Assembly: GCA_027078365.1 (NCBI GenBank)
Contig: JALWYQ010000034.1
Location: forward strand, 477 to 64,476
Reading direction: 5' to 3'
Origin: Phycisphaerae bacterium
Lineage (GTDB): Bacteria > Planctomycetota > Phycisphaerae > Sedimentisphaerales > Sedimentisphaeraceae
Length of the DNA stretch: 64,000 nucleotides
The position numbers were made by a program, and so were the translations under genes. How positions within the stretch are numbered: the stretch's first letter is position 1; every line of letters begins with the position of its first letter. Below the pieces are notes generated by a model. The model did no database searches. It was given only the letters and a program-made list of their open reading frames with translations, and was not told where the DNA came from. Shown here in pieces: positions 1 through 39,845 of the stretch.

Positions 1-1852
1 CACCTGATTCATCTAATGTGATTTTAGGCAAACGAATCTCTTGCCAATCATGATCGCTAATCTTTAGCTTATACAATGTAGGGCTATCCATATCTATCTT
101 GGCAACATGTGGATATTCAGGCATTACATCATTCGAAAGCCATGATAGCCAAGCAGAGAATCGTTTCTGTTTACTTTCACTAATACCCTGTTCAAACCAC
201 CAATCGCCCATTACATCATCAGTCCAAAGACCTGCGACACTCACATGCATAAAGTTTGAATCAGACTTCCACATATAAGGATGTTCACCTGTGATTTTTG
301 ATAATAAAGGATCCAACGATCGATCATATATTTCTTTTACTCCTTCAGAACTTGATAAATCAACCCATCGCCATTGTTCATTAGGAGGAGGAAAATAGCC
401 TACCCAGATACCAAATTGAGATTTGTTTGGATTGTCTATCCACCTTGGCCGATGCCCAGCCAATGGAGATATAGAAAATGCTGTAGCAATCCTTTGGGTA
501 GAATCACAATATTCCATTACCGCCTTCTCATCACCAGACCAATAATCATAATCACCCCAAGTAACTGGCACAGATCTAAAGTCGAAGATAACAAACAATC
601 CTAGAAGCGGGACTAACCCTAATGGGAAGATATGTCCTTTGATAACTGCAATGATTATAGCTAAAGTAAGCATGATCCAAATAACTGGCAATATACCAGC
701 AAACAATCCACCAGACCTCAATCTCTCTACAAATTGCAGCACATGTGGTTGGTAAATAGCAAAATTTGCCAAGCTAGTGCTATCTCCATACAAAACAATT
801 CTTCCTCTTCCAACAGCCCTGCTACCAGAAATTATTCTACGCCCAACACCATCATCAGAAGTAAATGATAGAGGTCCAAAGAAATTTGAATCAGAGTAAT
901 CAGACAATTCATTAATCCACCTAGCGGACATTTGGGGCCACAATAGAGAACCATACTGAATGTTAGATGTCTTTACACAACAATTTTTACCCATATTGAC
1001 AGACGCTTTCAATTGCGGCTCTAGAGGAAAAAAGGCAGAATTAGACGTTGAACAACCTAGACTTGATAAGAGTTCATTTACAACTTTCGCATGTCCAAAT
1101 AAATCCGTGTGGTCAGTTACTATAATTAATCTTCCACCATCTCTAACCCATTCTAGCAACTTACGTATGGATGTCTGATCCAAAGGGCGTGTTGGCGTTA
1201 TTATCCATGCTTCAGAATATTCTCGACTAATCTTATCTGGAGTAATAATTTCTGCCATTAACAAACTTTTTAACTCTGAATAACCATAAGACTTCTCAAT
1301 ATTCAATTTATTTACATCTGTAAATGGTATGTCCGCTCTTGCCCATTCACCAGAATCAATAAATGCCGTCTTTCCCTTGAAACGTGGAATAAAATAAACG
1401 AAGCATAAGGTTCCAATGAGTACAATGGATAGAATGTAAATATTTTTTTGACATGTAATAGATTTTAGCTTTTGATGGTTATAAATATTGGGCAACGCTA
1501 TTGCAAAAAAAATCAAAATTACAGTTTGTAAATCTCTATCTTGGAAAAGCCAAACAAAAGAGGCTATAGGTAATAAAGCTACCCAAATATGCCCTCTAAC
1601 ATTATGAGGCTTCACTATTTCTTTAAGAATAAATAAAACTATAGCAGGTAGAATAACTGCCCAAACACTTTGACTGGAAGCTACAAAACATAGCAACAAT
1701 GCTGTCATGAAAGTAAATATCGACATCTCACGAGCAAAAGAAAACTTAACCCCGAAAATAGAGAGAAAACCGGCAATCAAAACTGCCAATGAAAATTGAC
1801 CGAAAACTGAACAAAGTACAATACTTAATATTATTCCAATGATGCTAGCCAT
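1..1852 (-). CDS. Polytopic membrane protein with a large soluble domain (possibly DUF4350/GldG-like). Partial: the 3' end lies beyond the left edge.
   Basis: Absent from the ORF track because it runs off the window. I read the minus-strand frame occupying plus triplets 2-4 ... 1850-1852 and found no TTA/CTA/TCA in 617 codons. ATG at 1852-1850 (MASIIGIILSIVLCSVFGQF...). The N-terminus is hydrophobic helices. A soluble region follows with LLEWVRDGGRLIIVTDHTDLFGH and GRGRIVLYGDSTSLANF, then another TM block (LFAGILPVIWIMLTLAIIIAVI). The start overlaps the upstream gene end by 22 nt. Confidence 0.8.
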   Translation of the reverse strand, partial: MASIIGIILSIVLCSVFGQFSLAVLIAGFLSIFGVKFSFAREMSIFTFMTALLLCFVASSQSVWAVILPAIVLFILKEIVKPHNVRGHIWVALLPIASFVWLFQDRDLQTVILIFFAIALPNIYNHQKLKSITCQKNIYILSIVLIGTLCFVYFIPRFKGKTAFIDSGEWARADIPFTDVNKLNIEKSYGYSELKSLLMAEIITPDKISREYSEAWIITPTRPLDQTSIRKLLEWVRDGGRLIIVTDHTDLFGHAKVVNELLSSLGCSTSNSAFFPLEPQLKASVNMGKNCCVKTSNIQYGSLLWPQMSARWINELSDYSDSNFFGPLSFTSDDGVGRRIISGSRAVGRGRIVLYGDSTSLANFAIYQPHVLQFVERLRSGGLFAGILPVIWIMLTLAIIIAVIKGHIFPLGLVPLLGLFVIFDFRSVPVTWGDYDYWSGDEKAVMEYCDSTQRIATAFSISPLAGHRPRWIDNPNKSQFGIWVGYFPPPNEQWRWVDLSSSEGVKEIYDRSLDPLLSKITGEHPYMWKSDSNFMHVSVAGLWTDDVMGDWWFEQGISESKQKRFSAWLSWLSNDVMPEYPHVAKIDMDSPTLYKLKISDHDWQEIRLPKITLDESG

Positions 1853-3357
1853 TTTCTCCAATCCTGCCTAGCGGGACTACCAGTTCCCAATACGATCACA
1901 CCGTCAATTGTTGTCCAAGCTCCAGAATCTAAACCATCCACAAAAACTCTACGAGCATCGATAATGTTCTTGATATTTCCAAGCGGTATAGTGTCAATCT
2001 TAACAGTATGATCATTTAAAAAGATCGTTGCACCTTCACATGCAACGACTACCTTTTCAGTAGATTTAACACAAGTTTTTTTTCCTGGACCTACAATAAG
2101 CAGTACAGTCCCATCATTTCCTAGTGTATAAGGGAATCCACTATCTATGACTGTTCGCAACACACCTGATATTTTTGAAGGCTCGTGTGGATTATGAATT
2201 TTACCAACAACTCTTATATCTCCATCAATTCTTTTGTTAGTAAAAACAATAATAAAGATGAATATTAAAAATATAAAAATCCAACTTACATATCTTTTCT
2301 CATTAAAAAGGGTGGCTAATAGAAAGAGAATATTGATAAATCGATATTCACGACTGCCATAAACAATTTCTAAAATACCACTTTTCTGATAATTAGCTAA
2401 TCGATCTACGAAAGGATCTGAGTCATTAATATAAATTGCACCATTGCGTTTAATGATCAACGGTTCCAACGTACCGTTCACAAAACTTCCCAAGATCAAT
2501 TTTCCAGTCCTTGAAAGGCTCCCTCCGATATTAGAAATCCAAAGACCATCATCCGAAATTGCAGCTAGCATATATTGGTCACCAAACATTTGGTTGTTAT
2601 GCCAAGGTCTTGCTTGTTTAATATTATAAGGCTTTATTACAGAATAGTCAGTATTGTGATATTGATCATGGTCAACTAAAATTATAGGAAAATCAGACTT
2701 GTTGTGTCCCGAATGCTGAATTAGGCTTGTAATTCCAATCTGTCCACTTACATTGTTGTAATCTACAAGCTCGCCTTGTAGTATTTTCGCTAAAACTCTG
2801 CCGTGTCGATAACCGTAGGATAAGTTTGTATTGTTTGCAATTTGAACTTCTCGCCTTGGTTGTATCAATGAAATAAGAGTAATCACAATACAAGCCAATA
2901 GTAGAAAATAGTAGATATACTTCGGGCATAATCTAACAACGATCATCAAAATGAAAAAGCATGCGAAGCAAATTACAGGAATATTTATCCAAGATCCCAA
3001 CTCAGATATCTGAATAATCCACAAGATCAATATCACACAACCAAAGTAGTTTGATAATGTTTTTTGCTTAGAAATCTGTGAAATAACAAATACCCAAAAC
3101 CCATAAAGGTAGGTGGCAGGCCACAATACAGCTAGGATAGCAACACAAAAAACAACTTTAACAAACGCAGGATAGCAATGATTAAGAAAACAAAACCACA
3201 GAGCCCCCCCTAACAATAACAAGCAGGAGATATCGAAAACAAACTTATTCCCCAATCCACGAGATAATATTAAGGAGAGCAATAAAGAAATCAGACAAAG
3301 AAAGCCAACGACTTCAAATTTACTTTCTTTGTCTGAAACTTGAATTTCATCATTCAT
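1831..3357 (-). CDS. Polytopic membrane protein, unknown function (508 aa from the first ATG)
   Basis: ORF track gives 1831..3474, but its first 39 codons are a TTG-initiated out-of-frame reading of the 12-bp repeat, (LLYW)n. The first ATG (MNDEIQVS) at 3357-3355 shares a base with the TAA of the upstream peptide gene (TAATG). Multiple hydrophobic helices in the N-terminal half and a further TM block (WIFIFLIFIFIIVF). Confidence 0.75.
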   Translation of the reverse strand: MNDEIQVSDKESKFEVVGFLCLISLLLSLILSRGLGNKFVFDISCLLLLGGALWFCFLNHCYPAFVKVVFCVAILAVLWPATYLYGFWVFVISQISKQKTLSNYFGCVILILWIIQISELGSWINIPVICFACFFILMIVVRLCPKYIYYFLLLACIVITLISLIQPRREVQIANNTNLSYGYRHGRVLAKILQGELVDYNNVSGQIGITSLIQHSGHNKSDFPIILVDHDQYHNTDYSVIKPYNIKQARPWHNNQMFGDQYMLAAISDDGLWISNIGGSLSRTGKLILGSFVNGTLEPLIIKRNGAIYINDSDPFVDRLANYQKSGILEIVYGSREYRFINILFLLATLFNEKRYVSWIFIFLIFIFIIVFTNKRIDGDIRVVGKIHNPHEPSKISGVLRTVIDSGFPYTLGNDGTVLLIVGPGKKTCVKSTEKVVVACEGATIFLNDHTVKIDTIPLGNIKNIIDARRVFVDGLDSGAWTTIDGVIVLGTGSPARQDWRKWLASLE

Positions 3358-3707
3358 TAATTGCAACCATAAGAACAACCAGTAGAGCAACCAGTAGAGC
3401 AACCAGTAGAGCAACCAGTAGAGCAACCAGTAGAGCAACCAGTAGAGCAACCAGTAGAGCAACCAGTGGAGCAACCAGTGGAACGAGCCATTTCATGCGA
3501 TGTACCACTTTTAATTATATCATTAGCCATAGCGCTTCTAGATGTATTAGCATTTAACTGTCCACTCATTTCGAAAGATTGAGCAGCCGCAGGAGAGCTA
3601 AATGAAGCAGACGCATGCGCATTGTCTGGACTGAACAAATTAAATTGAGGAAATGCAAAGAATATCGCACATACTACGATTAGAGCAAAAACTAGATTAA
3701 CTTTCAT
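3357..3707 (-). CDS. Small secreted or anchored peptide (116 aa) with a C-terminal (STGC)9-SYGC cysteine repeat
   Basis: ATG preceded by AGGAGA at about 8 nt. N-terminus is MKVN plus a hydrophobic core plus AHA-SAS (signal-peptidase-like site). The rest is Ser/Ala/Thr/Gly-rich and ends in ten C-x3 units. The stop overlaps the next gene's start (TAATG). A consensus-like promoter lies upstream. Confidence 0.7.
   Translation of the reverse strand: MKVNLVFALIVVCAIFFAFPQFNLFSPDNAHASASFSSPAAAQSFEMSGQLNANTSRSAMANDIIKSGTSHEMARSTGCSTGCSTGCSTGCSTGCSTGCSTGCSTGCSTGCSYGCN
3363..3483. repeat. 12-bp tandem repeat (unit caaccagtagag), 7 perfect plus 3 degenerate copies
   Basis: Read directly. Perfect units at 3376-3459, variants at 3363-3374, 3460-3471 and 3472-3483. 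Encodes the (STGC)n tail on the minus strand. Confidence 0.95.
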
Positions 3708-3755
3708 TGTCTAATTCTCCTATAATAACCATCATGAACTGATTTCGTCCCCCAT

Positions 3756-3783
3756 ATTGTAGCATCAAAACGCAACATGTCAA
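3756..3783 (-). promoter_or_regulatory. Sigma70-like promoter TTGACA-16-TACAAT for the peptide operon
   Basis: Reverse complement of 3756-3783 reads ttgacatgttgcgttttgatgctacaat. It lies about 50 nt upstream of the ATG at 3707. Confidence 0.5.
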
Positions 3784-4028
3784 TGTTTATCTTGAATTAA
3801 AGAAACTATGATAATTAGATGCACCGAGAATGCAATAGTAATATATGTCATCATAGTTTTCAGTTATCACGCCGGAGATTACCATCCCTAATTGTGTAGC
3901 AACAAATAAATTCAATAAGCTTTGACTTAATCCATATTTAATGTTATATAAGCCCCCCTTTGTAATATTTGCGCATACAATCTGCAAGCATTACCAATGT
4001 CAATAAAACTTAAACGGAGTACAGCGAT

Positions 4029-5576
4029 TTGGAAATAAGTAAATACAAAAACGATCTTCTCTCGGGCTTAACTGTTGCGTTAGCATTAGTTCCAGAAGCG
4101 ATTGCGTTTGCCTTTGTATGCCACGTCTCGCCGATGATTGGTTTATATGCTGCATTCATAATGGGCTTAACAACTGCAATCCTAGGCGGTAGGCCTGGAA
4201 TGATATCAGGAGCCACTGGTGCTATTGCAGTTGTGCTTGCAAGCTTAGTTCTTGAGCATGGGGTCGAGTATCTTTTCGCTACAGTCTTATTGATGGGTAT
4301 CTTCCAAATCTTAGCAGGACTATTACGACTTGGTAAATTTGTTAGGATGATTCCACACCCCGTTATGCTTGGCTTTGTTAATGGCCTTGCAATCGTTATA
4401 TTTATTGCTCAGCTTGGTCAGTTCAAAACCGGAATAGGCGCAGAAGCAACTTGGCTATCAGGCAGAGACTTATATCTAATGTTAGCCTTAGTCGCCTTAA
4501 CAATAGCAATCTGCTATATCCTTCCAAAAATTACAAAAGCAATCCCAGGCTCTCTAGCTGGAATTATAATAGTTACGATTATAGCGATAGTTCTCGATAG
4601 AACTGGAATCTACCACACAAGAAACGTCCTTGATTTTGTACAGATGTTGGACCCACAAATCAAAACACTAAAAGGCGGGCTTCCAAAATTTCATTTTCCA
4701 CAGGTCCCTCTAAACTTTAAAACTCTAGAAATAATCTTGCCATACGCTGCGATTGCAGCAGCTGTTGGGCTTATCGAATCACTACTAACCCTAACCCTTA
4801 TCGACGAGATTACCCAAACACGTGGTAAAGGCAACAAAGAGTGTATTGGTCAAGGAATCGGTAATGTACTATGCTCTTTATTTGGTGCAATGGGCGGTTG
4901 TGCAATGATTGGCCAAAGTATGATTAACATCAAATCCGGTGGGCGTACAAGACTCTCCGGCATAACAGCGGCTATTGCCCTACTCGGCTTTATTGTAATT
5001 GGTTCAAGTGTAATACAGATTATCCCAGTAGCCGCATTGGTTGGAGTGATGTGTGTCGTTGTTATCAGCACCTTCGAGTGGTCTAGTCTTCGTATTATGG
5101 GCAAAATACCACGCTCAGACGCCTTTATTATTGTCCTTGTTTCGTCGGTGACAGTATTCAAAGACCTAGCAACAGCCGTATTTATTGGTGTGATTGTTTC
5201 TGCACTTGTATTTGCTTGGAAAAAAGGCTCTCAGATTGAAATTCATTCAGAAATCGACCAAAAAGGCTCAAAGGTGTACAAACTGCGAGGTCAACTCTTC
5301 TTCGGGTCAACTCGAAATTTTGTAGATTTATTTGACCCTGCAAACGATCCAGATGACGTGATTATCGATTTTCACTATGCAAGAGTTCACGACCATTCTG
5401 GAATTGAGGCTATCAACACTCTAGCAGAGAGGTACACCAAACTAAATAAGAAGCTACACCTAATAGATCTCAGCCCAGAATGCTCAGAGCTTTTAAATAC
5501 TGCCGCAGAACTTGTTGATGTTAAAGTGTATGAAGATCTAAAGGATTGGCATATCGCTACTGATAAGCTCGCATAG
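4029..5576 (+). CDS. SulP-family anion (sulfate) permease with a C-terminal STAS domain
   Basis: 515 aa with a TTG start. N-terminal LSGLTVALALVPEAIAFA motif, about 10-12 hydrophobic helices, and a C-terminal soluble STAS-like region (KVYKLRGQLFFGSTRNF...IIDFHYARVHDHSGIEAI). Confidence 0.9.
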   Translation: MEISKYKNDLLSGLTVALALVPEAIAFAFVCHVSPMIGLYAAFIMGLTTAILGGRPGMISGATGAIAVVLASLVLEHGVEYLFATVLLMGIFQILAGLLRLGKFVRMIPHPVMLGFVNGLAIVIFIAQLGQFKTGIGAEATWLSGRDLYLMLALVALTIAICYILPKITKAIPGSLAGIIIVTIIAIVLDRTGIYHTRNVLDFVQMLDPQIKTLKGGLPKFHFPQVPLNFKTLEIILPYAAIAAAVGLIESLLTLTLIDEITQTRGKGNKECIGQGIGNVLCSLFGAMGGCAMIGQSMINIKSGGRTRLSGITAAIALLGFIVIGSSVIQIIPVAALVGVMCVVVISTFEWSSLRIMGKIPRSDAFIIVLVSSVTVFKDLATAVFIGVIVSALVFAWKKGSQIEIHSEIDQKGSKVYKLRGQLFFGSTRNFVDLFDPANDPDDVIIDFHYARVHDHSGIEAINTLAERYTKLNKKLHLIDLSPECSELLNTAAELVDVKVYEDLKDWHIATDKLA

Positions 5577-5643: not shown

Positions 5644-6705
5644 TCATAAATTCTCTCTTTGCCATTCCTCGTGTGCATAAGAGAGCCAAAAACCAACTAC
5701 AGAACCGATTGAGCCAAAAGCAACCATCTGAACTGGAAGAATTCCGGCAGATGGTTTTAGCAAGAATGAAGGCGGAAAGTTTGCCAGCAAATACTCAATA
5801 TTAGATGTATTAGAGGCAAAAAGCATCGTAATAAATACAACTAAGCCGCTTGCAATAATTGGAACGATATAGTGTACTTTCAAAAAGTGGCGAGACAGAT
5901 ACGTAGCGAGCCCAAATGAAACTAAGACTCCAAAACAGATCTGTCCAGTATAGGCTTGTCTTACAACTGAAAATACATCTTTAGCAACGATAACTCTAGC
6001 TCCAAGCGCTAGCAAATTAACACCTAGAATAGCTATCACAACTGAAGCGACAAATGATATCGTAATATTGGTTTTGTTTGTCTGCAACCAAATCTTACGT
6101 AATGTTGAAACTCTAACATTGATATTAGCCCCAACAAACGCAACTAAAACAATACCAAGCCACACAAAACCTTCCCAAGCTAAGGATTGGTAAATATTGT
6201 GTATCTCAATAGGACTTTTAGTATAGTCAATATGAACTGTAAGCAAACCGCTTCTGACCGCACAAATTGACAGAGCAAGTACCGCTCCGCCAAAAGCAAA
6301 CTCTTGAGATTTATTACCGAATGTCAGATTTAGAAAGATTGCTGTAAGAAAAACAATGAGACTAAAAAGTAAGAGACGCTTAAACGGCAATGTCCCAAAT
6401 ACCAGAGAAAGCGGTTCTTGTGGACTAGGTGTAGATATTAGCATCCATCCAACAAAGCCAATCGTAGCCGTAGCGATAGAAATAGCAAATAACACTTTTA
6501 TCTTAACTAACGCCGGAATATCCGATACTGGTCCAAAAAACAAAAGTAAAATTGCCGTAGCATATGCCACGGCAGCCTTAGATAGGCCAAACGAATACTC
6601 CATATCATAAACACTCTTATTAGAGGCCATTGTCACTATATACGAAACAATCACCAATACAATCAGAGATATTGCAATACCTGCAATTCTAAACACTTTA
6701 GGCAT
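5644..6705 (-). CDS. Polytopic membrane protein, unknown function
   Basis: 353-aa ORF, about 10 hydrophobic helices, no recognised motif. Confidence 0.65.
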   Translation of the reverse strand: MPKVFRIAGIAISLIVLVIVSYIVTMASNKSVYDMEYSFGLSKAAVAYATAILLLFFGPVSDIPALVKIKVLFAISIATATIGFVGWMLISTPSPQEPLSLVFGTLPFKRLLLFSLIVFLTAIFLNLTFGNKSQEFAFGGAVLALSICAVRSGLLTVHIDYTKSPIEIHNIYQSLAWEGFVWLGIVLVAFVGANINVRVSTLRKIWLQTNKTNITISFVASVVIAILGVNLLALGARVIVAKDVFSVVRQAYTGQICFGVLVSFGLATYLSRHFLKVHYIVPIIASGLVVFITMLFASNTSNIEYLLANFPPSFLLKPSAGILPVQMVAFGSIGSVVGFWLSYAHEEWQRENL

Positions 6706-6935: not shown

Positions 6936-7008
<73 letters not shown>

Positions 7009-7020
7009 CTTATATACTAA

Positions 7021-7146: not shown

Positions 7147-7485
7147 CTATTTATCATCTTTATATTTGATTGCCACCCCACTAGTCCAGAGCTTGCCATT
7201 TGAATCTATACCTGAAGACCCCAGAACAACCGCATCAGCACCCAGTGGAGCACATTTAGCTCTCAGAGAATTGTGCATCTTAGCCGTTTCATTAGTTTCC
7301 CAGTCTTTGGTTGTGACAGTCGCAATTTCTGTAAACGGCTTAGTTGGAACGGTTACCAGAACCTCAATATCCGACGGATTTGTAGGTTTAAAATACCCCT
7401 TGGCTGTTTTAGTTACAGTAACAGTTGCACAACCCGCAACAACTAACATAAGAGATACCATTAAAATCAAATTTATTTTCTTCAT
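7147..7485 (-). CDS. Small lipoprotein, paralogue of 7497..7859
   Basis: MKKINLILMVSLMLVVAGC lipobox. The ATG at 7485 is preceded by AAGAGG at 5-6 nt. An alternative ATG at 7500 overlaps the upstream stop (ATGA). The C-terminal half (LGADAVVLGSSG...AIKYKDDK) parallels its neighbour. Confidence 0.7.
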   Translation of the reverse strand: MKKINLILMVSLMLVVAGCATVTVTKTAKGYFKPTNPSDIEVLVTVPTKPFTEIATVTTKDWETNETAKMHNSLRAKCAPLGADAVVLGSSGIDSNGKLWTSGVAIKYKDDK

Positions 7486-7496
7486 AATAACCTCTT

Positions 7497-7859
7497 TCAT
7501 TTCTTATCCTTGTAGATAATTGCAGTTCCGAGTAATCTATCGTATGATTTTGATTCTCTATCTTTTCCTGCCCAAACTTCATCTTTTGAATAGTTGCCGC
7601 CAACAGGCACTACAATAACTGCATCGGCACCTATCTGAGCAGCTCTCTCTCTTAGGTAGCTCACTGATGCATTCTTAGCTTGCAGATCTGCAATAACAGT
7701 ATAATCCTCTTGCGGAGCCTGACTCAATACTTGTACTTCTTTAGCATCTCTAGGCACGAGCTGATGGTTCAAGTAATATCTATTTGCCTCATCAGAAACG
7801 CAGCCAACAAGCGGTAAAACAGCAAAGGCCACTAACAATATCACTAATTTCAATTTCAT
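7497..7859 (-). CDS. Small lipoprotein
   Basis: MKLKLVILLVAFAVLPLVGC lipobox, GGAGA Shine-Dalgarno, 120 aa. IGADAVIVVPVGG...AIIYKDKK resembles the downstream paralogue. Confidence 0.75.
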   Translation of the reverse strand: MKLKLVILLVAFAVLPLVGCVSDEANRYYLNHQLVPRDAKEVQVLSQAPQEDYTVIADLQAKNASVSYLRERAAQIGADAVIVVPVGGNYSKDEVWAGKDRESKSYDRLLGTAIIYKDKK

Positions 7860-7970: not shown

Positions 7971-8582
7971 TCACTCTAGTGGCTGCGCATCTAGGATTCT
8001 TTTAGATTTAGGCATCAAAATAAAGCGATATGTGGTGTTTGCACGTAAATGACCAGCAAAAGAGTAGGCATAGGAATAGCCTTTCTTATTAATAATGGCA
8101 CTTTGTGAGTAAAAGAATGCAACCCCAAACAGTGCCGATGGATGAACTGGCCTTGCCTCAACTATTTCAAAATCTGCCGTTTTAGCCACCAGAATATCGT
8201 AAGTCTCTCTCCAAGCAATTACGTCCATATATGCGAAAACAAAACTACCTACAAATAAAGAAATTCTAAGGATTTTACGCACACGCTCTTTGGCCTTTTC
8301 AAAGCCAGGTTTGTTTAGTTTCGTCCACCTTGGTATTAGCTTCATCTTCTTCGATAACGATTTATAGAGCATGTATGGAACCAAAAGCGTATTAACTATA
8401 TTATCTGCAAACAACCTTGCAATGTGAGGCTCAACAACATGGCTTTTCAAGAGAAGAAACGGAAATATAAGCACGACAAAGGTTACCAAAGTCCTTTCCG
8501 AGTTTCTCTCAAGACCAACCCTTGGTTCTTTAACGTAGGTGTCGGGATCCAATACCAGCCATTCATCAAGATATTTAAACAT
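7971..8582 (-). CDS. Two-TM membrane protein, candidate immunity protein for the RHS C-terminal toxin
   Basis: 203-aa ORF starting 18 nt after the RHS stop, with an AAGGA Shine-Dalgarno. Hydrophobic segments LVTFVVLIFPFLLL and ISLFVGSFVFAYMDVIA. The immunity role is inferred from position only. Confidence 0.6.
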   Translation of the reverse strand: MFKYLDEWLVLDPDTYVKEPRVGLERNSERTLVTFVVLIFPFLLLKSHVVEPHIARLFADNIVNTLLVPYMLYKSLSKKMKLIPRWTKLNKPGFEKAKERVRKILRISLFVGSFVFAYMDVIAWRETYDILVAKTADFEIVEARPVHPSALFGVAFFYSQSAIINKKGYSYAYSFAGHLRANTTYRFILMPKSKRILDAQPLE

Positions 8583-8600
8583 TCAATACATCCTTAACTA

Positions 8601-11600
8601 CTATTTACTACCTGCGCCGCTATAGCGATTCTCAAGACCGCTAGTAACGCCTTCCAATACGATGCTAGGAGAGTCCTCTATGAGACCTGCCGCTATAGAT
8701 TTAAAGAAGGTCTTTGCCCTTATATGTTTTATCAAGCCTCTGCTTGCCTTTGTTAAGACTGCCTTTCTAACTGCCATCCAACTACCCCTGCCAATACTAA
8801 TACGCGGCAGCTTTAATGCAGGAATTCTAATTGCTCCCAATAGAAATCCTTTAGCTGTATCACCAAGAATCCCTTTAACGTTAAAGTCTTCCCGTTTTCC
8901 AAGCCCCCAATCACGAGTATTTCTAAGTAATGCGCGAGTTCCACCGCCAACAGCACCGGCAACCATAGGACCTGCATAAAGGAGGGTTTCTCCAGATGCC
9001 GCTCCACTAATCGCCGCTATCGCATAATCACTCCAATCACTTGGCTTATCGTCTAACAGATCTTCAATGCCCTGCGATATTAAGCCTCCAATTGCTCCAA
9101 CCGAAGCGAAGATTGCATCGTCAATCCCAAACCACTCTCCTAACGGATCGTTAAAGTTGGTTGGGCTATTTCCACAATACACATACCAGTTCATTCCATC
9201 GGCATAGCCGATTGGATCTGTCTGCATAAATCGCCCAATCTTAGGATTGTAGATTCTTGCACGATAATTGTAGAGCTTAGTGCTGCTATCGTATCTTCTC
9301 GCTGTAAACATATATGGATTGCCAACAGCGGAAGCATCAATAAGCTCGCCCCAAGCATTGTAAATACTCGTATTGCCAAATGCGTCATACGAATACTTCT
9401 CCACAATCTGCGCAGACGAATCGGTTAGAGCTACAACACTACCAAGTGCATCGTAATGATAATAATATTTCTTTTCTAAAGAACCGTCATACTCAATCAT
9501 TACTATCGGTTCATCCACCGCTGGACCATAGATAAATTTACGTAAAATACGGTACGAACCATCATTTTCTTTAACATATTCTGCGATAATATCGTTGCCA
9601 TTATAGACAAAGTAAATCCGCTGATTTCCCTTAGTCTGCGCAACTAACCTAGAGAGATAATCATACTGATACGAAACGATTAAATCTTGATTGTGCCAGA
9701 TTTCTTTTAGTCTGTTCTGGCTATCATAAATGTATCTATAATAGCCATCATCAGTAAGATTCCCTTTAATATCGTAAGTTAATGCAACATTGGCGATTGA
9801 ATCGTATTGATTAAGGCAGTTATCACTTACATAATTGATTGCGACTGATCCATCATCAACGGTTACTCGATTACCAAGAACATCGTATGTGTAACTAGTT
9901 TGAGAGGCATCAGAATTATGCTCTAACAAGAGTCTATAGTTGCTATCATATTCATAGCTAAAAGATTCCAGACCGTTGATAGTTTTGCTCAACCTTAAGC
10001 CAACATTGTCATATGTGTAATCAAATGACATCGCAAATCCGCTATCAAGCAAAGATTCGTTACTGATATTTATTAAACGATTTGCAAGATCAAAATTATA
10101 CGTTGCAACCGACGAATCAGCCAAGACAACCTGTTTGCGCCGTGAGAGTTCGTCGTAAGAGTATTTGGCAATTTCCTCTCCGTTATCGTCTTTGATTGAA
10201 ATAATTCTGGACATTGCATCGTAGCCAAATTCAACATACGATGCGTCTGGATAGATTAGCTTACTAATCCTATTTAGCTTATCATACTCATAGGAGACTT
10301 CAAAACTCACAGGGTCTATACTCCTCGTGCATCTGCCTAGTTTGTCATAGTCAAAGTGAGCAATAATTACCCCATCTTCTCTGACATTTACAAGCCTACC
10401 AGCTATATCATATTCGTATTGGTAGGAAAAATCTGGAGATGTCTTCGAGATAAGCCTATCTCTGGAATCGTAACTAAATGTAATAATATCTCCAGCTCTA
10501 TTTCTATAACGCAATGGATTTGAGTTTTTATCATACTCGAGAATCTCTTCCTTGCTCTGGTCTGGGTATATAGTCTCAATCAAACGGCCAAAGCCATCAT
10601 ACCTATAGTTAGTACGATTCCCCTTGGCATCCTCAATGGCAATTAATTGCGCATCCGCATCGTAAAATCTATGAGTCTCTGCTCCTTGTGCATCTATGGT
10701 AGTCTCTAGTAAGGAAGGCCGAGTATATGAGAATGTTGTCACATTTCCATTTGCATCTATCTGCTTCTCTAGAGTTTCGTTTTCGTTGTAAAGTGTTTCA
10801 CGCTCATTCCCTAAAGAATCTCTTATCTTAATGATATTATCCAGCATATCGTAGTAATATTGAGTAACTTGATTCTCTGTATCATCAAAATCACCAAGCT
10901 GAGCTTGAGTGCAGCAGAGCTTTTGATTTTTGTTGTAATCAAATTTCGTGATATACCCCAGAGCAGTCTTGATTTGCAACAGTTCTCCAAGGGCATCGTA
11001 TTGATACTCAACGGCATCTCCCATACAATTCTCTACACGGCGAACGTTACCGTAGACGTCGTATTCAAACGATGTCTCAATGTTATTGCAATTATTGTCT
11101 TGGCCATAATCGAATATAACTTTATGCAGCCTGCCAAAATTTTCAGGCTCACTCTCGTCTTGATAATACAGGTATTTTGTAACAACGCCATCGCTTGATG
11201 TGATCGTTTCAATCTGCCCATACTCGTTGTAACTAAACTTAACAGTCGCCGAAACCATTTCGCCATCAACCAAAGTCTCTGGATAGGTGATTTGAGTGAG
11301 ATTGCCATTGTCGTCATAGTTGTAATAAATCGTAGAGCCATTAGGCTTTGTTACAGAAGCGATTCGATTGAAATGCTCTGGGCAATACGAATAAAACGTT
11401 GCGCAGACATTTGGATTATCTGCTTCGTTAGGGTCACTAACTTTAGTCTTAACAAACACAGCTCTAAGGCGTCCTTGGCTATCGTATTGATAGTCTTTGC
11501 ATCTTCCTGACGGAGAGACCTCTCTACTGAGCAAGAGATTTTCCGTGTAGAAATAACTCGTCTTGAATGAGTTTGGATCTTGGGATAAATCTTTAGCAAA

Positions 11601-13088
11601 GACAGTCTTACTCTGTAATTGACCAGAGTCACTGTATTCATATAACGTCTTAAAGCCTTGCCTATCTATGTAGGTAACAATATTAGAATCATTGCCCGAA
11701 TAGTCAAATCTATGGATTCCATCACCTTCTCGCTGTGATTGGATGCGGCTATTTCTGTATCTATTTTCTAGATAAACGTCTCCATTTGGGTCTGTTATTG
11801 AGACAATTCGATGGTCGTAATCATATGAATATTTAGTCTGCAAACCAGACGGATATTTTGCTGTGGCTGGCGTCGTTGTGCTTATTAAATCGTTTGTATC
11901 TGGATCGTACGAATAAGACCACACTCTATTTGTTGATTCGTCCGTCACAGATTCCAGCAGTCCATCATCATTGTAAGAAAGCGTTATTTCCCTTTGCAGA
12001 TCATCAATTATCTTAACGAGCTGATACTCAAACGCAACTACACAACGCCTGTCAGTTAATTGTCCATCAGAAGATGCTTGCAAATATTTAGATCTGCCAA
12101 TAATTTCACATTTCTTATCGTTACCATTTTCATCTTTGCGATAAACAAATCGTAGAGAATTATTATTTGCATCTTTTATTGACGATAAATTACCGTTTGA
12201 GTCGAAGGAATATCGATAACCATCTTTCTTGACAAGTTCATACACGCCATTATCGTTTATCTCTATATAATTGCTCAAGTCTTGGATTCTTGTGAAGACA
12301 TTTAGCTCTTGATTATCTCTGTGATATCTATATCTTGAACCTTGCCCATCTAAAAGAATCAATGTATTGGGATCGCTGAGCTTGCGCAGCTTAATGTTGT
12401 ACGACATGTCCCAGCCGTAACCAAATTGAGAATTGTACTCTCTGCGACTTGCGTAGGTTCTCTTGAAGATAACTGGCATCACTCTGCCCTGTATCTCAAA
12501 ATCTGTTACAGTTCTGCCGTACTCGCCATTTTTCATGTAAACAGGGTCTGCTGCAATTGCTGGCATAATCTTGTTTTGTGTCGCCGCTGGCTCTGGTGCC
12601 GAATCTATCAGTGAAACAAGTGAATCCTTGTACTCTTTGAACAAATCGTCAAATTCAGCCTTATCTGCCCCATCTGGAAAATACTCTTTTAGAAAACTCT
12701 CAATGTTGCCACTTGCGCTATCTTGAATAAGGTCTAAGACAAGCTCTCTCTCCATTGGGTTTGCAAAAGTCTTGCCAAGAATTCTGTTATAAAAAGATTC
12801 TGGATCGCTACTTGAATAATGACAACTTTCAAATGCAAAACACTTCATATCCGTGTAATACGCAGGACTCTTCCATCCAGAATTCGGCACATATTTATAC
12901 ATTATATAATCGTTTTCGTAACCGCCATTATCTCCATAGTCTCCTGAATAACAGATTATATAAATCCAAGTGTTGCTTGAGACCTCAACAACTACCTCAC
13001 CATTTTTGAGCCTATCAAAACAAGTTATTCCAGAATAGGCATTAACTGCAAATAACAGCAAAAATACTACAAAGATATTTCTTTTCAT
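8601..13088 (-). CDS. RHS/YD-repeat protein with a Sec signal peptide and a C-terminal polymorphic toxin domain
   Basis: Dozens of YD-type repeats (YxYDxxGNL/R: YSYDAFGN, YTYDVLGNR, YEYDKLNR ...). The RHS core ends at RFMQTDPIGYADGMNWYVYCGNSPTNFNDPLGEW (DPxG...DPxG motif), followed by a 176-aa unrelated tail. Signal peptide MKRNIFVVFLLLFAVNAYSG. The ATG at 13088 has GGAG 7 nt upstream. An alternative ATG is at 13103. Confidence 0.92.
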   Translation of the reverse strand: MKRNIFVVFLLLFAVNAYSGITCFDRLKNGEVVVEVSSNTWIYIICYSGDYGDNGGYENDYIMYKYVPNSGWKSPAYYTDMKCFAFESCHYSSSDPESFYNRILGKTFANPMERELVLDLIQDSASGNIESFLKEYFPDGADKAEFDDLFKEYKDSLVSLIDSAPEPAATQNKIMPAIAADPVYMKNGEYGRTVTDFEIQGRVMPVIFKRTYASRREYNSQFGYGWDMSYNIKLRKLSDPNTLILLDGQGSRYRYHRDNQELNVFTRIQDLSNYIEINDNGVYELVKKDGYRYSFDSNGNLSSIKDANNNSLRFVYRKDENGNDKKCEIIGRSKYLQASSDGQLTDRRCVVAFEYQLVKIIDDLQREITLSYNDDGLLESVTDESTNRVWSYSYDPDTNDLISTTTPATAKYPSGLQTKYSYDYDHRIVSITDPNGDVYLENRYRNSRIQSQREGDGIHRFDYSGNDSNIVTYIDRQGFKTLYEYSDSGQLQSKTVFAKDLSQDPNSFKTSYFYTENLLLSREVSPSGRCKDYQYDSQGRLRAVFVKTKVSDPNEADNPNVCATFYSYCPEHFNRIASVTKPNGSTIYYNYDDNGNLTQITYPETLVDGEMVSATVKFSYNEYGQIETITSSDGVVTKYLYYQDESEPENFGRLHKVIFDYGQDNNCNNIETSFEYDVYGNVRRVENCMGDAVEYQYDALGELLQIKTALGYITKFDYNKNQKLCCTQAQLGDFDDTENQVTQYYYDMLDNIIKIRDSLGNERETLYNENETLEKQIDANGNVTTFSYTRPSLLETTIDAQGAETHRFYDADAQLIAIEDAKGNRTNYRYDGFGRLIETIYPDQSKEEILEYDKNSNPLRYRNRAGDIITFSYDSRDRLISKTSPDFSYQYEYDIAGRLVNVREDGVIIAHFDYDKLGRCTRSIDPVSFEVSYEYDKLNRISKLIYPDASYVEFGYDAMSRIISIKDDNGEEIAKYSYDELSRRKQVVLADSSVATYNFDLANRLINISNESLLDSGFAMSFDYTYDNVGLRLSKTINGLESFSYEYDSNYRLLLEHNSDASQTSYTYDVLGNRVTVDDGSVAINYVSDNCLNQYDSIANVALTYDIKGNLTDDGYYRYIYDSQNRLKEIWHNQDLIVSYQYDYLSRLVAQTKGNQRIYFVYNGNDIIAEYVKENDGSYRILRKFIYGPAVDEPIVMIEYDGSLEKKYYYHYDALGSVVALTDSSAQIVEKYSYDAFGNTSIYNAWGELIDASAVGNPYMFTARRYDSSTKLYNYRARIYNPKIGRFMQTDPIGYADGMNWYVYCGNSPTNFNDPLGEWFGIDDAIFASVGAIGGLISQGIEDLLDDKPSDWSDYAIAAISGAASGETLLYAGPMVAGAVGGGTRALLRNTRDWGLGKREDFNVKGILGDTAKGFLLGAIRIPALKLPRISIGRGSWMAVRKAVLTKASRGLIKHIRAKTFFKSIAAGLIEDSPSIVLEGVTSGLENRYSGAGSK

Positions 13089-13114
13089 AATAATCTCCGC
13101 CATAGTTAAAGGTC

Positions 13115-36679: not shown

Positions 36680-37225
36680 ATGAAGAAGGTCTTACTTGTA
36701 GCCCTCTGCGCTGCGCTAATTAGTACTGCATCCGCAACAACCACCCTATCAGGCACATTCTCAAAAGCAACGGGAGATTTCTCGAAGGCAACTTGGGAGT
36801 ATACTAACTCAGGGGACAGTTTTCTCTTGAAAGGTTACGGCCCAGAAACAACAGATCCTCAACTCGTATGGACTGTCGCTGGAGACATAGACGCTAGTAA
36901 CGTAGAAATAACTCTACTACCTGCAGGTAACTGGGATCCTCTATATGATGGAACCTACACCGCAGACGCAGCAGAATTCACAGACTACGGCTCATTTAAA
37001 CTCTTAATGACAGCAGCAAGCGATGCTGGTCAAAAGAGTTATAATGGCACTCTATACGACATCACAATTGAATTTCAGGCACAAAGCTGGGTCGTTGGTG
37101 ATTATGATGCCAATGAATTCACAAACGCAAGAATTGCCCTTACCGGCAATCCAGTTCCAGAACCAGCCACTATGGCTCTTTTAGGTCTCGGCGGGTTGTT
37201 TATTGCAAGAAGAAAACGTAACTAG
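36680..37225 (+). CDS. PEP-CTERM-anchored secreted protein, paralogue 1 (181 aa)
   Basis: Signal peptide MKKVLLVALCAALISTASA. C-terminal VPEPATMALLGLGGLFIARRKRN (PEP motif, TM helix, basic tail). Family motifs TWEYTNSGDSFLLKGYG, AEFTDYG, FQAQSWVV. Confidence 0.88.
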   Translation: MKKVLLVALCAALISTASATTTLSGTFSKATGDFSKATWEYTNSGDSFLLKGYGPETTDPQLVWTVAGDIDASNVEITLLPAGNWDPLYDGTYTADAAEFTDYGSFKLLMTAASDAGQKSYNGTLYDITIEFQAQSWVVGDYDANEFTNARIALTGNPVPEPATMALLGLGGLFIARRKRN

Positions 37226-37272
37226 AAAGTTTTGATCCAAATAAAAACTTGATAAAAAACGCTTTTAAAAGT

Positions 37273-37304
37273 TCCTCTCGAGGTTTTGAGAGGAGCTTTT
37301 TTTT
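37273..37304 (+). terminator. Intrinsic terminator after paralogue 1
   Basis: tcctctc-gaggtttt-gagagga, then gc and T8. Confidence 0.6.
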
Positions 37305-37420
37305 GAGGCTAAATAAAACTCTAAACCACTTTAACAGCTACAGTTGCAGTATAAAAAGTCAATCGGTTGCCTCACCCGAGGTAATCCTAGTAATTACAAT
37401 TAAAAACTACCATTTTTTTC

Positions 37421-37449
37421 TTGCTATAAAAACCGCTTCGTGCTATTAT
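37421..37449 (+). promoter_or_regulatory. Sigma70-like promoter TTGCTA-17-TATTAT for paralogue 2
   Basis: Read directly. Followed by tataggac, as at 40061. Confidence 0.45.
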
Positions 37450-37571
37450 TATAGGACCGTGATAGGAGGTCGCGGAGAAGTAGTAAAGGGAGTAAATTAA
37501 CTAATTGAGATAAGTAGCTAGTCGTGCGCTATCTTATCGGACACTAATCCATCAATAGGAAGGAAAAGAAA

Positions 37572-38192: not shown

Positions 38193-38218
38193 GCAATTAT
38201 AACTTGCTATTTAAAAAA

Positions 38219-38252
38219 GGGCTTTTTTCAGCGATGAAAAAGCCCTTTTTTT
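38219..38252 (+). terminator. Intrinsic terminator after paralogue 2
   Basis: gggcttttt-tcagcgatg-aaaaagccc followed by T7. Confidence 0.75.
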
Positions 38253-38566
38253 ATTGTTTGCATTATTATTTTTAGGAAAACTTGACATACAAATCTATAT
38301 AGCAATCGCAGCTACTCTGTTTAGACTAGTCCATTACTCTTGAATTTTATCTTTTTCACACGAAAAGTGCGTTTTTTAAGGTCAGAATTGAATATTATCG
38401 GATTTTTATTCATTTTCCCTTGAAAATTTATAATCGAGTTTTACCATTTATAGTGAGGTGGAGGTGATTGAAAAGGCATGAGTTTATCGAGTGAATCACA
38501 AATGAGCCTTCAGATGGAGGTGCTGTTGGCTCGAATGCTAATCAATCAAATAGGAAGGAAAAGAAA

Positions 38567-39190: not shown

Positions 39191-39283
39191 TCTTATTTTT
39201 TCTTAAGTTACTCAGGCGATTATAGGCAAAATATCGCCAAGAATCCTTAAAATCTAATCTACCATCAAAGGGAAGGAAACGAA

Positions 39284-39787: not shown

Positions 39788-39813
39788 GCACTCGCAAGAA
39801 AAAGATAACTAAA

Positions 39814-39845
39814 AGGACTCTCCAGCGATGAAGAGTCCTTTTTTA
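39814..39845 (+). terminator. Intrinsic terminator after paralogue 4
   Basis: aggactct-ccagcgatga-agagtcct followed by a T-run. Confidence 0.7.

What the first reader, a model, noticed from the sequence alone, without database searches (positions are those of the whole stretch)
3357..3707. 116-aa peptide ending in (STGC)9-SYGC: ten cysteines at exact 4-residue spacing after a signal-like N-terminus
- The repeat is built only of Cys, Ser, Thr and Gly. These are the residues enriched in azol(in)e (TOMM/heterocycloanthracin-like) and lanthipeptide cores.
- Each unit offers Ser/Thr two to three residues upstream of a Cys.
- However, the N-terminus looks like a Sec signal peptide (hydrophobic core plus AHA) rather than a RiPP leader, and no modification enzyme is visible in the window.
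- Alternatives are a periplasmic or surface thiol-rich metal-binding (metallothionein-like) tail, or a persulfide-carrying tail.
Basis: partly seen in the sequence, partly recalled or inferred. Interest (0 to 1): 0.65.

Follow-up and report, generated by a model that had tools for sequence, protein, structure and literature searches.

The report
Exported cysteine-ladder peptide with two membrane partners
This is a real, conserved gene for a small exported protein whose tail carries a cysteine at every fourth residue, and it always sits next to two uncharacterised membrane proteins, forming a three-gene unit found in several bacterial phyla (gut bacteria included) whose function nobody has described.

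Summary
Window 3357-3707 (-) encodes 116 aa: a signal-like N-terminus, an FSSPAA motif, then R-(STGC)9-SYGC-N. The unit count (10) is assembly-dependent, because another scaffold of the same locus has a 100-N gap inside the repeat.

It is not a chance repeat ORF. 116 relatives share the architecture, and SxGC units are kept through many synonymous codons.

In every context that could be read, the peptide (A) lies beside two polytopic membrane proteins:
- B, 508 aa, window 1831-3357 (-), stop/start overlap TAATG. It has no Pfam family.
- C, 670 aa, window 1-1852 (-), cut by the window edge. It has a GldG/DUF4350/IFT52-GIFT-like domain.

Across 20 loci only A, B and C recur. Hosts include Phycisphaerales, Verrucomicrobia, an Akkermansia MAG, Bacteroides, Prevotella, Brocadiaceae and Bacteriovoracaceae.

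No YcaO, radical SAM, lanthipeptide or MNIO enzyme is in the window, and none recurs across the related loci. The TOMM and lanthipeptide reading is therefore not supported.

A sister sub-family usually carries an adjacent TlpA-like periplasmic thioredoxin. This points to reduced thiols working in the envelope.

My best guess, at low confidence, is a periplasmic thiolate ladder (a buffer for soft metals or other thiophiles) handled by the B-C complex. The module matches no described system.

The parts
3756..3783 (-). Sigma-70-like promoter candidate for the cassette: TTGACA, 16 nt, TG-extended TACAAT. It lies about 49 nt upstream of the ATG.
   Evidence: It matches 11 of 12 positions and is the best match in window 1-4400. 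This is a consensus match only, and the number of matches in the region equals the shuffle expectation.
3717..3721 (-). Shine-Dalgarno-like AGGAG, 9 nt upstream of the ATG of gene A.
   Evidence: Read directly from the sequence.
3357..3707 (-). Gene A: a 116-aa exported cysteine-ladder peptide. Residues 1-32 are a putative signal peptide ending AHA. FSSPAA is at residues 36-41. Arg75 precedes ten SxGC units at residues 76-115. The last residue is Asn.
3585..3602 (-). Codons for the conserved F-S-S-P-A-A motif at the start of the mature protein.
   Evidence: Alignment A3: F36 and A41 are invariant, A40 is nearly invariant, and G49 of the following 'SGD' is invariant.
3363..3482 (-). Tandem array of ten 12-nt units encoding (STGC)9-SYGC.
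   Evidence: The copy number is uncertain, because L008 has a 100-N gap in this array.
1831..3357 (-). Gene B: a 508-aa polytopic membrane protein (= P0117). It has about 7 N-terminal TM helices, a soluble alpha/beta domain, a TM hairpin and a C-terminal beta domain. Its start overlaps the stop of A (TAATG).
   Evidence: It has no Pfam or NCBIfam family.
1..1852 (-). Gene C: residues 1-617 of a 670-aa polytopic membrane protein (= P0129), cut by the start of the window. It carries a GldG/DUF4350/GIFT-like domain with invariant DHTDLFGH and GDST..NF motifs. It overlaps B by 22 nt.

Best explanation
Gene A is the small exported component of a self-contained three-gene envelope module, A-B-C.

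Shown:
- A is a conserved protein with an N-terminal hydrophobic signal-like segment, a conserved F[SA]SPAA..S[YF]..GD motif near the mature N-terminus, a variable linker, and an Arg-bracketed ladder R-(S-x-G-C)4-10-R/N/K.
- It is encoded immediately upstream of two membrane proteins, B and C. C has a non-catalytic-looking GldG/IFT52-GIFT/GH42-domain-B type fold, and B has a weak match to the same kind of domain.
- Only these three genes recur between loci.

Inferred:
- A is exported by Sec and cleaved after AHA.
- The soluble domains of B and C face the periplasm. This rests on the positive-inside pattern of their loops.
- B and C form a complex that docks the FSSPAA end of A and leaves the flexible Cys ladder free in the periplasm.
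- The ladder works as reduced thiolates, either as a metallothionein-like sponge or buffer for soft metals or other thiophilic or oxidising species, or as the acceptor for something B-C delivers.
- In the sister sub-family a dedicated TlpA-like periplasmic reductase keeps the thiols reduced.

The module is probably horizontally mobile cargo.
For: Family and selection:
- 116 homologues share the architecture.
- Synonymous-codon diversity under an invariant S-x-G-C shows purifying selection on the Cys frame.

Linkage:
- A-B-C are adjacent and co-oriented in L001, L003, L005 and L010-L022.
- All-vs-all comparison of ORFs in 20 loci finds only A, B and C shared.
- In the window the A stop overlaps the B start (TAATG) and B overlaps C by 22 nt.

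Partners:
- The C model (pLDDT 90) matches the IFT52 GIFT domain and the non-catalytic domains of GH42 enzymes at E about 2e-5.
- C hits DUF4350 and ABC_transp_aux.
- B aligns weakly with the same region of C (hhalign E 5.7e-5) and weakly resembles class-I glutamine amidotransferase folds.

Envelope thiol chemistry:
- A thioredoxin-fold gene with an N-terminal anchor and a WCAPC motif lies directly beside the cassette in 4 of 6 sister-family contexts.

No cytoplasmic RiPP enzymes:
- None was found in the window, and only A, B and C recur across the related loci.

Mobility:
- Integrase, transposase or primase genes flank the cassette in many loci.
- The cassette region has the lowest GC of the window, 0.35-0.37 against about 0.41.
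Against: - No metal-binding, redox or expression data exist.
- B and C carry many invariant polar residues. In B these include H230, D312-S313-D314 and H391-E392-S394. In C they are D247-H248-T249-D250, H254 and D357-S358-T359. This looks more like active or ligand sites than passive scaffolds, so A may be a substrate rather than a sponge.
- B and C have no conserved Cys pair for a thiol relay.
- The x position is patterned along the array: Thr-rich at the start, Val/Tyr/Met-rich at the end. The array is bracketed by Arg. A simple sponge does not need either feature.
- Cys-x3 spacing with Gly/Ser is not the CxC/CxxC pattern of classical metallothioneins.
- The window sub-family has no adjacent thioredoxin.
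- No metal-resistance genes are consistently linked.
- Topology and signal cleavage were not computed with dedicated predictors.
Confidence: 0.35

Rival explanations
1. A is a substrate that B and/or C modify in the periplasm. This would be a new, ATP-independent post-translational pathway. B-C would attach or deliver a group to the Cys thiols or neighbouring Ser residues (a cofactor, lipid or glycan). The logic is loosely that of system II cytochrome c maturation: two polytopic membrane proteins plus a TlpA/ResA-like reductase acting on reduced Cys.
For: - A, B and C are strictly linked, and only these three genes are conserved.
- Many invariant His, Asp, Ser and Glu residues lie in the B and C soluble domains, and invariant Trp, Gly and Pro residues lie in the B membrane domain.
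- A TlpA-like reductase is adjacent in the sister family.
- The conserved FSSPAA motif could act as a recognition (leader-like) element.
- The patterned, Arg-bracketed array suggests a defined substrate.
Against: - Neither B nor C resembles any known transferase, GT-C enzyme or heme lyase by sequence or fold.
- The fold of C is known mainly as a non-catalytic module.
- No donor-synthesis genes are linked.
Confidence: 0.22
2. A is a structural or adhesive envelope protein. Its Cys ladder would form intermolecular disulfides, giving a keratin-associated-protein-like cross-linked matrix or tether. B-C would act as its membrane anchor or assembly platform.
For: - The tail is exported, low in complexity and rich in Gly, Ser and Cys, with variable unit number.
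- The hosts include PVC bacteria.
- B and C look like scaffolds.
Against: - Many hosts are anaerobes from gut, fen or groundwater, where periplasmic disulfide formation is limited.
- The linked thioredoxin is of the TlpA/Redoxin (reducing) type.
- A is small and has no anchoring motif.
Confidence: 0.15
3. A is a classical RiPP precursor whose Cys and Ser residues are modified in the cytoplasm before Sec export by enzymes encoded elsewhere. Candidates are TOMM azoles at G-C-S, Ser-to-Cys lanthionines, radical-SAM thioethers, or MNIO thiooxazoles as in bufferins.
For: - The G-C-S and S-x-G-C motifs are chemically suitable.
- Sec-signal RiPP precursors do exist (bufferins and oxazolins, PMC12452194 and PMC11626156).
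- There are weak sub-threshold hits to the Cxxx radical-SAM target models TIGR04117/04118.
Against: - No YcaO, LanB/C/M, radical SAM or DUF692/DUF2063 gene was found in the 64-kb window, and only A, B and C recur across 20 related loci.
- The contexts listed show none adjacent either.
- The bufferin-type precursors described in PMC12452194 were collected as genes that precede an MNIO gene, in clusters that mostly also encode a DUF2063 partner.
- The NCBIfam scores of 7-19 bits are far below the 35-50 bit cut-offs.
Confidence: 0.1
4. A is a multi-core precursor that B/C, acting as peptidases with a class-I-amidotransferase-like fold, cut into many tetrapeptide thiols (for example CSTG or STGC). 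These would serve as a ribosomally made low-molecular-weight thiol buffer in phyla that lack glutathione.
For: - The array is a perfectly periodic 4-residue unit with variable copy number, bracketed by Arg.
- The class-I amidotransferase-like fold also occurs in serine and cysteine peptidases (my own knowledge: families S51, C56).
- There are conserved Ser, His, Asp and Glu residues in B.
Against: - There is no recognisable catalytic triad geometry or peptidase family hit.
- There are no spacer or recognition sequences between units.
- This is pure inference.
Confidence: 0.05
5. The ORF is a non-functional by-product of a 12-nt minisatellite.
For: - The units are nearly identical at DNA level in the window.
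- The gene was not called in the ENA annotation of the same locus.
Against: - Conservation across phyla with synonymous substitutions.
- A conserved N-terminal domain.
- Conserved synteny.
- A promoter-like site, a Shine-Dalgarno-like sequence and a translational-coupling overlap.
- The missing gene call is explained by the N-gap.
Confidence: 0.01

Closest known systems
Cxxx-repeat radical-SAM target peptides (NCBIfam TIGR04117 'Cys-Xaa-Xaa-Xaa repeat radical SAM target protein', TIGR04118 'AC3_0185 family rSAM-modified Cys-rich RiPP', TIGR04114)
   Same: These are small proteins whose C-terminal part is a tandem ladder with Cys at every fourth residue. They are the only family models that give any signal at all.
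   Different: - Scores are 7-19 bits against cut-offs of 20-50 bits.
- The window peptide itself does not hit them at E <= 1.
- The window family has a Sec-type signal and the FSSPAA domain.
- No radical SAM gene is in the window or recurs across the related loci.
Bufferins and oxazolins (Sec-exported, Cys-containing periplasmic copper-binding RiPPs made by MNIO/DUF692 + DUF2063; PMC11626156, PMC12452194)
   Same: These are small Cys-bearing proteins with a Sec signal peptide instead of a leader. They act in the periplasm. The oxazolin precursors have repeated Cys motifs (EGKCG).
   Different: - No MNIO, DUF2063 or DoxX gene is next to A in any locus.
- A has no DUF2282/BUF-type domain or NCBIfam hit.
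- The partners here are two GldG-like membrane proteins.
Metallothioneins and periplasmic copper-storage proteins (Csp1-type)
   Same: These have a high density of Cys with Gly and Ser, no obvious enzymatic fold, and plausible thiolate ligand arrays. Csp1 is also exported. This comparison rests on my own knowledge.
   Different: - The strict Cys-x3 period with invariant flanking Gly and Ser differs from CxC/CxxC clusters or a helical bundle.
- The module includes dedicated membrane partners.
- There is no sequence similarity to either family.
Microcin B17 / heterocycloanthracin-type TOMM precursors and class I lanthipeptides (nisin ring B, T-P-G-C)
   Same: The G-C-S and S/T-x-G-C motifs are the kind that become thiazole-oxazole pairs or i-to-i+3 (methyl)lanthionine rings. 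This comparison rests on my own knowledge.
   Different: - No YcaO/McbBCD or LanB/C/M/KC/L enzymes were found.
- A has a Sec signal rather than a leader.
- The linked proteins are inferred to be periplasmic, where ATP- or tRNA-dependent chemistry cannot run.
GldG / ABC_transp_aux / DUF4350 / IFT52 GIFT-domain proteins (comparison for partner proteins C and B)
   Same: - C hits DUF4350 (27-39 bits against a 30.4-bit cut-off) and ABC_transp_aux.
- C superposes on the IFT52 N-terminal GIFT domain (TM-score 0.59 on the target) and on GH42 domain B.
- C gives a weak GldG hit.
   Different: - No GldA/GldF-type ABC ATPase or permease is linked.
- B and C have an about 7-helix N-terminal membrane domain and an extra C-terminal beta domain that GldG lacks.
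- The GldG equivalog score is 21 bits against a 390-bit cut-off.
System II cytochrome c biogenesis (CcsB/CcsA with ResA/CcsX)
   Same: This is a resemblance of logic only: two polytopic membrane proteins with periplasmic domains, plus a TlpA-like reductase, acting on reduced Cys of a Sec-exported protein. The description of system II is from my own knowledge.
   Different: - A has no CxxCH motif.
- B and C have no ResB or CcsA family hit.
- The thioredoxin is linked only in the sister sub-family.

Membership tests
Cxxx-repeat radical-SAM-modified peptides (TIGR04117/TIGR04118/TIGR04114) | The protein scores above the curated cut-off of the family HMM. | tested here: not met
   The window peptide gives no hit at E <= 1. 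Relatives score 7-19 bits against cut-offs of 20-50 bits.
Cxxx-repeat radical-SAM-modified peptides (TIGR04117/TIGR04118/TIGR04114) | A radical SAM/SPASM maturase gene lies adjacent. | tested here: not met
   No Radical_SAM hit was found among the window ORFs. None is listed in the gene neighbourhoods. Only A, B and C are shared by 20 loci.
Bufferin/oxazolin-type MNIO RiPPs | The precursor gene is followed by MNIO (DUF692) and DUF2063 partner genes. | tested here: not met
   A is followed by B and C (no Pfam family, and DUF4350) in all loci. No DUF692 or DUF2063 appears in any listed neighbourhood. The defining gene order is taken from PMC12452194.
Bufferin/oxazolin-type MNIO RiPPs | The precursor has a Sec signal peptide and Cys residues exported to the periplasm. 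| tested here: inconclusive
   The N-terminal K/R plus hydrophobic core plus AxA-type site is conserved in the alignment. No SignalP-type predictor or experiment was available.
TOMM (YcaO-dependent azol(in)e peptides, e.g. microcin B17, heterocycloanthracins) | A YcaO cyclodehydratase (with E1-like partner and dehydrogenase) is present in the cluster. | tested here: not met
   No YcaO hit was found in the window ORFs or in the neighbourhood tables.
Lanthipeptides (classes I-V) | A dehydratase/cyclase (LanB+LanC, LanM, LanKC, LanL or LxmK/X/Y) is present in the cluster. | tested here: not met
   The same scans as above found none. The conserved partners have no such domains.
Metallothionein / copper-storage proteins | Sequence-family membership (Pfam or NCBIfam metallothionein or Csp models). 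| tested here: not met
   The peptide and five relatives give no hit.
Metallothionein / copper-storage proteins | Stoichiometric binding of soft metal ions by Cys thiolates. | not testable with these tools
   This needs purified protein, ICP-MS and native mass spectrometry.
GldG / ABC_transp_aux (for partner C) | The protein scores above the cut-off of TIGR03521 (GldG) or PF09822, and is linked to GldA/GldF ABC components. | tested here: not met
   The GldG hit is 21 bits against 389.85. PF09822 scores 15-34 bits against 34.7. No ABC transporter genes are conserved nearby.
DUF4350 (PF14258) domain proteins (for partner C) | The protein scores at or above the Pfam gathering threshold of 30.4 bits. 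| tested here: inconclusive
   The window C scores 27.4 bits, which is below threshold. L003 C scores 31.9 and L006 C scores 38.8, both above. Precomputed PF14258 hits exist for most homologues. The fold match to GIFT/GH42 domain B supports the assignment at fold level.
Known anti-phage defence systems (PADLOC) | Any of A, B or C hits a PADLOC model. | tested here: not met
   No hits at E <= 0.1.

The most novel reading that the evidence does not exclude
A-B-C is a previously undescribed periplasmic peptide-processing system. Two GldG-like polytopic membrane proteins recognise the FSSPAA end of a Sec-exported precursor and chemically act on its Cys ladder, by covalent modification, attachment of a cofactor, lipid or glycan, or cleavage into small thiol peptides. 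They would do so without ATP. The system would be spread by mobile elements among PVC bacteria, Bacteroidota (including gut Akkermansia, Bacteroides and Prevotella) and others.
Probability: 0.25. Interest if true: 0.85.

Novelty: categorically new. Interest (0 to 1): 0.68.

Why it matters
If the module does what its anatomy suggests, it would be a new way for bacteria to deploy a dense array of thiols outside the cytoplasm. That includes human-gut Akkermansia, Bacteroides and Prevotella lineages and many uncultured PVC bacteria.

Why this matters:
- Exported poly-cysteine peptides are rare. The few known ones (bufferins, oxazolins, methanobactin-like products) have turned out to be important for metal stress and virulence.
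- This family has different partners, with no MNIO, radical SAM or YcaO enzyme. It would reveal either a new metal or redox buffering device or a new periplasmic modification chemistry.
- It would give a first functional handle on two uncharacterised membrane-protein families, B and the DUF4350/GldG-like C.
- It shows that such genes are easily lost in assembly and annotation. The same locus in a public scaffold has an N-gap in the repeat and no gene call.

Tried and rejected
- Known families: Pfam and NCBIfam scans of A, B and C gave nothing above threshold. PADLOC gave nothing. Rfam found only the tRNA.
- One relative (P0052) carries a precomputed PF27846 hit that the local Pfam copy does not hold. 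I could not identify it.
- A fourth conserved gene: the small genes after C (112-128 aa in L001, L003 and L008) and the 353-aa gene of L003 are not related to each other. The 353-aa membrane ORF at window 5644-6705 has the same length only by coincidence.
- L003 gene D is a partial duplication of the C-terminal part of its own C gene.
- B as a GT-C glycosyltransferase, heme lyase or other known membrane enzyme: Foldseek against PDB found nothing significant (best E 0.25).
- C as a glycosidase: the fold matches cover only the non-catalytic domains of GH42 and GlmA-type enzymes. A profile search of PDB sequences was empty.
- Plasmid-borne copies: none in PLSDB for either type of C.
- Phage-borne copies: one IMG/VR contig (L028) carries the cassette, with a longer A variant. 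This is not enough to call the module viral.
- Literature: no paper contains the GCSxGCS strings, and nothing links DUF4350 or GldG to Cys-repeat peptides.
- SulP transporter next to the cassette (window 4029-5576): it is divergently oriented and not conserved in other loci, so I rejected it as part of the module.
- Lipoprotein reading of A: there is no consistent lipobox across the family (alignment).
Full report
**1. The observation**

The minus strand of window 3357-3707 carries an ATG-to-TAA ORF of 116 codons. Its sequence is MKVNLVFALIVVCAIFFAFPQFNLFSPDNAHASASFSSPAAAQSFEMSGQLNANTSRSAMANDIIKSGTSHEMA-R-(STGC)9-SYGC-N.

- The tail is encoded by a 12-nt tandem repeat of 9.8 copies at 3363-3479.
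- It is the only long Cxxx ladder in any frame of the window.
- The two other ORFs listed across the repeat (LLVA and LLYW frames) are artefacts of the same repeat.
- An AGGAG lies 9 nt before the ATG.
- The best sigma-70-like match of the region is TTGACA-16-TGnTACAAT at 3783-3756 (-), about 49 nt upstream. This is a consensus match only.

One caveat concerns the copy number. An independent public scaffold of the same locus (L008, ENA) has a 100-N gap inside the array, and no gene was called there. The unit count of 10 is therefore assembly-dependent.

**2. It is a real, selected gene family**

A search of 5.8 billion protein clusters returned 116 proteins at E <= 0.01, nearly all 90-130 aa. 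They share one architecture:

- a K/R plus hydrophobic N-terminus;
- in the window's sub-family, F[SA]SPAA..S[YF]..GD a few residues after an AxA-type site;
- a variable linker of about 25 residues;
- an Arg followed by S-x-G-C units.

Statistics over the 116 members:

| Feature | Value |
|---|---|
| Units per protein | 4-10, median 7 |
| Unit position 1 | Ser in 97% |
| Unit position 3 | Gly in 92% |
| Residue before the array | Arg in 97 of 116 |
| Residue after the last Cys | Arg in most |
| Variable position x | Thr-rich in the first units, Val/Tyr/Met-rich in the last |

In 14 other loci the units are written with TCN and AGY Ser codons, all four Gly codons and both Cys codons. The Cys frame is therefore under purifying selection. 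The near-identity of the window's units reflects recent expansion or homogenisation.

Variants without Gly exist: TNSC units in Prevotella-like proteins and CST[SR] units in L028. The constant core is Cys followed by Ser or Thr at period 4.

**3. The surroundings: a three-gene module**

The stop of A overlaps the start of a 508-aa ORF (TAATG). I call this gene B (window 1831-3357, = P0117). B is overlapped by 22 nt by a third gene, C, which runs off the start of the window (window 1-1852, residues 1-617 of the 670-aa P0129).

The order A-B-C recurs widely:

- It is found in metagenome contigs L001, L003 and L005.
- A scan of species-representative genomes with the C profile found loci in a Phycisphaerales MAG (45% identity), two Verrucomicrobia MAGs, Bacteroidales, Bacteroidaceae and Bacteroides MAGs, Brocadiaceae, Kiritimatiellia, Bacteriovoracaceae, an Akkermansia muciniphila MAG and a bin labelled Pacearchaeota. 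A peptide of the A family, with a Cys ladder (degenerate in the Kiritimatiellia locus L019), lies just upstream in each.
- In a 3.9-Mb Chlamydiae MAG the A gene is truncated next to an IS.
- In a Prevotella MAG, B and C are fragmented.
- All-against-all comparison of every ORF in 20 loci found only A, B and C shared between loci.

B is a rare family. Only 145 clusters among 1.84 billion representatives match its profile.

**4. What B and C are**

B has no Pfam or NCBIfam family.
- Its AlphaFold model (pLDDT 84.7) shows about seven N-terminal helices, an alpha/beta domain, a helical hairpin and a beta-rich C-terminal domain.
- It has no significant PDB neighbour. The best hits are HisH-type class-I amidotransferases at E 0.25.

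C is better defined.
- It scores near or above threshold for DUF4350 and weakly for ABC_transp_aux/GldG.
- Its model has pLDDT 90.3.
- The model matches the IFT52 N-terminal GIFT domain and the non-catalytic domains of GH42 and GlmA-type glycosidases at E about 2e-5.

B and C align weakly over the start of that domain (hhalign E 5.7e-5), so they are probably distant paralogues.

Both carry many invariant polar residues:
- B: EHD, NDSDPF.DR, PHEPS, D..R, GTGSP.
- C: TPT.P, GG.L...DHTDLFGH, GDST..NF.

The charge pattern of the short loops in C is + / + / - / + before the last helix. This places the soluble domains outside the cytoplasm (read by hand). That is an inference, not a prediction from a dedicated tool.

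**5. A sister sub-family and a redox clue**

Many of the 116 peptides lack FSSPAA and instead have a GL..PDA-type motif.

- Their neighbours are a larger C homologue (hmmsearch E 1e-34 to 1e-38) and a second large membrane protein.
- In four of six contexts a thioredoxin-fold gene (Redoxin/AhpC-TSA) lies directly beside the cassette. It is absent.
- The one I could read has an N-terminal anchor and a WCAPC motif, which is the TlpA/ResA type of periplasmic reductase.

This argues that the Cys residues work in the envelope and need to be reduced.

**6. What it is not**

- Pfam scans of essentially all sizeable ORFs of the window show housekeeping genes, an RHS toxin, a 4195-aa PKD giant, PEP-CTERM paralogues and a Topo VI-B-like gene. 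They show no YcaO, radical SAM, lanthipeptide or MNIO enzyme.
- The same holds for the neighbourhood tables of related loci.
- The only model resemblance, to the radical-SAM Cxxx-repeat targets, is far below threshold.
- The known Sec-signal RiPP precursors (bufferins, oxazolins, CxxxxC) were collected as genes preceding an MNIO gene, in clusters that mostly also encode DUF2063 partners (PMC12452194). Neither enzyme is present here.
- There are no PADLOC hits, no plasmid copies and one IMG/VR contig with the cassette.
- No paper contains the repeat strings or links DUF4350/GldG with such peptides.

**7. Mechanism**

| Status | Claim |
|---|---|
| Shown | A conserved exported-looking Cys-ladder protein is genetically locked to two membrane proteins of GldG/GIFT-like fold |
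| Inferred | Sec export; periplasmic B-C complex; docking through FSSPAA; reduced thiolate ladder acting as a soft-metal, thiophile or oxidant buffer (confidence 0.35) |

Rival explanations:

| Rival | Confidence |
|---|---|
| B/C chemically modify or load the ladder | 0.22 |
| Disulfide-cross-linked structural role | 0.15 |
| Classical RiPP made by unlinked enzymes | 0.10 |
| Cleavage into tetrapeptide thiols | 0.05 |
| Non-functional ORF | 0.01 |

The invariant polar clusters in B and C, and the polarity of the array, are the main reasons not to be confident in a passive-sponge model.

**8. Mobility**

- Integrases, transposases, primases or resolvases flank the cassette in many loci.
- In the window the cassette lies in the lowest-GC stretch, 0.35-0.37.
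- It lies 3.2 kb from a tRNA-Lys gene.

These points fit horizontal spread. No integrase is present in the window itself.

**9. Verdict**

The RiPP-class interpretations are not supported, and the periplasmic thiol-tail alternative is consistent with the evidence but untested. The A-B-C module matches no described system. I rate it categorically new at the level of the module, with the function still open.

Noticed in passing
L008 8311-8410 (same locus as window 3363-3482): The public ENA scaffold of this locus has a 100-N gap inside the Cys-repeat array, and the peptide gene was not called there. Genes of this family are probably under-reported in assemblies and annotations.
   Followed up: partly
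window 8601-13103 (-), with 7971-8582, 7497-7859 and 7147-7500 (-) downstream: A 1500-aa RHS/YD-repeat protein (DUF6531, RHS_repeat) is followed by a 203-aa ORF with no family and two small lipoprotein-like ORFs of 117 and 120 aa. This looks like a toxin with immunity-like genes. An RHS gene also follows the cassette in the IMG/VR contig L028.
   Followed up: no
window 20325-32912 (-): A giant 4195-aa protein with about 32 PKD/K319L-like domains. It lies in a stretch of higher GC (0.46) than the rest of the window.
   Followed up: no
window 36680-40637 (+): Five tandem paralogous ORFs of 167-207 aa. The three that were scanned end in a PEP-CTERM sorting motif. This suggests an exosortase system in this organism.
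   Followed up: no
window 43063-44772 (-): A topoisomerase VI B-subunit-like gene (Topo-VIb_trans + HATPase_c) in what looks like a PVC-type bacterial chromosome. Neither flanking gene is an A subunit (phosphoglucomutase on one side, PGDH on the other).
   Followed up: no
window 6936-7009 (+): A tRNA-Lys(CTT) gene lies 3.2 kb from the cassette, and the cassette region has the lowest GC of the window (0.35-0.37). This is a possible old integration site, but no integrase is present in the window.
   Followed up: partly
L003 11842-12180 and 12322-13383: The gene after C encodes a PRQPEQ-repeat protein whose C-terminus duplicates a 32-residue stretch of the neighbouring C protein. The next gene starts with the same signal peptide. 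This is a local duplication and not part of the conserved module.
   Followed up: partly
L028 3262-4098: In an IMG/VR contig the A gene is 278 aa. It has FSSPAA and a (CST[SR])n ladder without Gly. It also has a C-terminal extension with two repeats of a YW..G..KIHN..C...C.KCGG zinc-ribbon-like motif.
   Followed up: no
L007 8226-8471 (= L013): In a 3.9-Mb Chlamydiae MAG only the last 50 codons of the A gene remain, beside an IS (DDE_Tnp_1). B and C are intact. DarT/Macro and Mrr genes lie nearby.
   Followed up: partly
P0052: One Prevotella-type relative with TNSC/SNSC units carries a precomputed hit to Pfam PF27846. That model is not in the local Pfam copy, so I could not determine what it describes.
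   Followed up: partly
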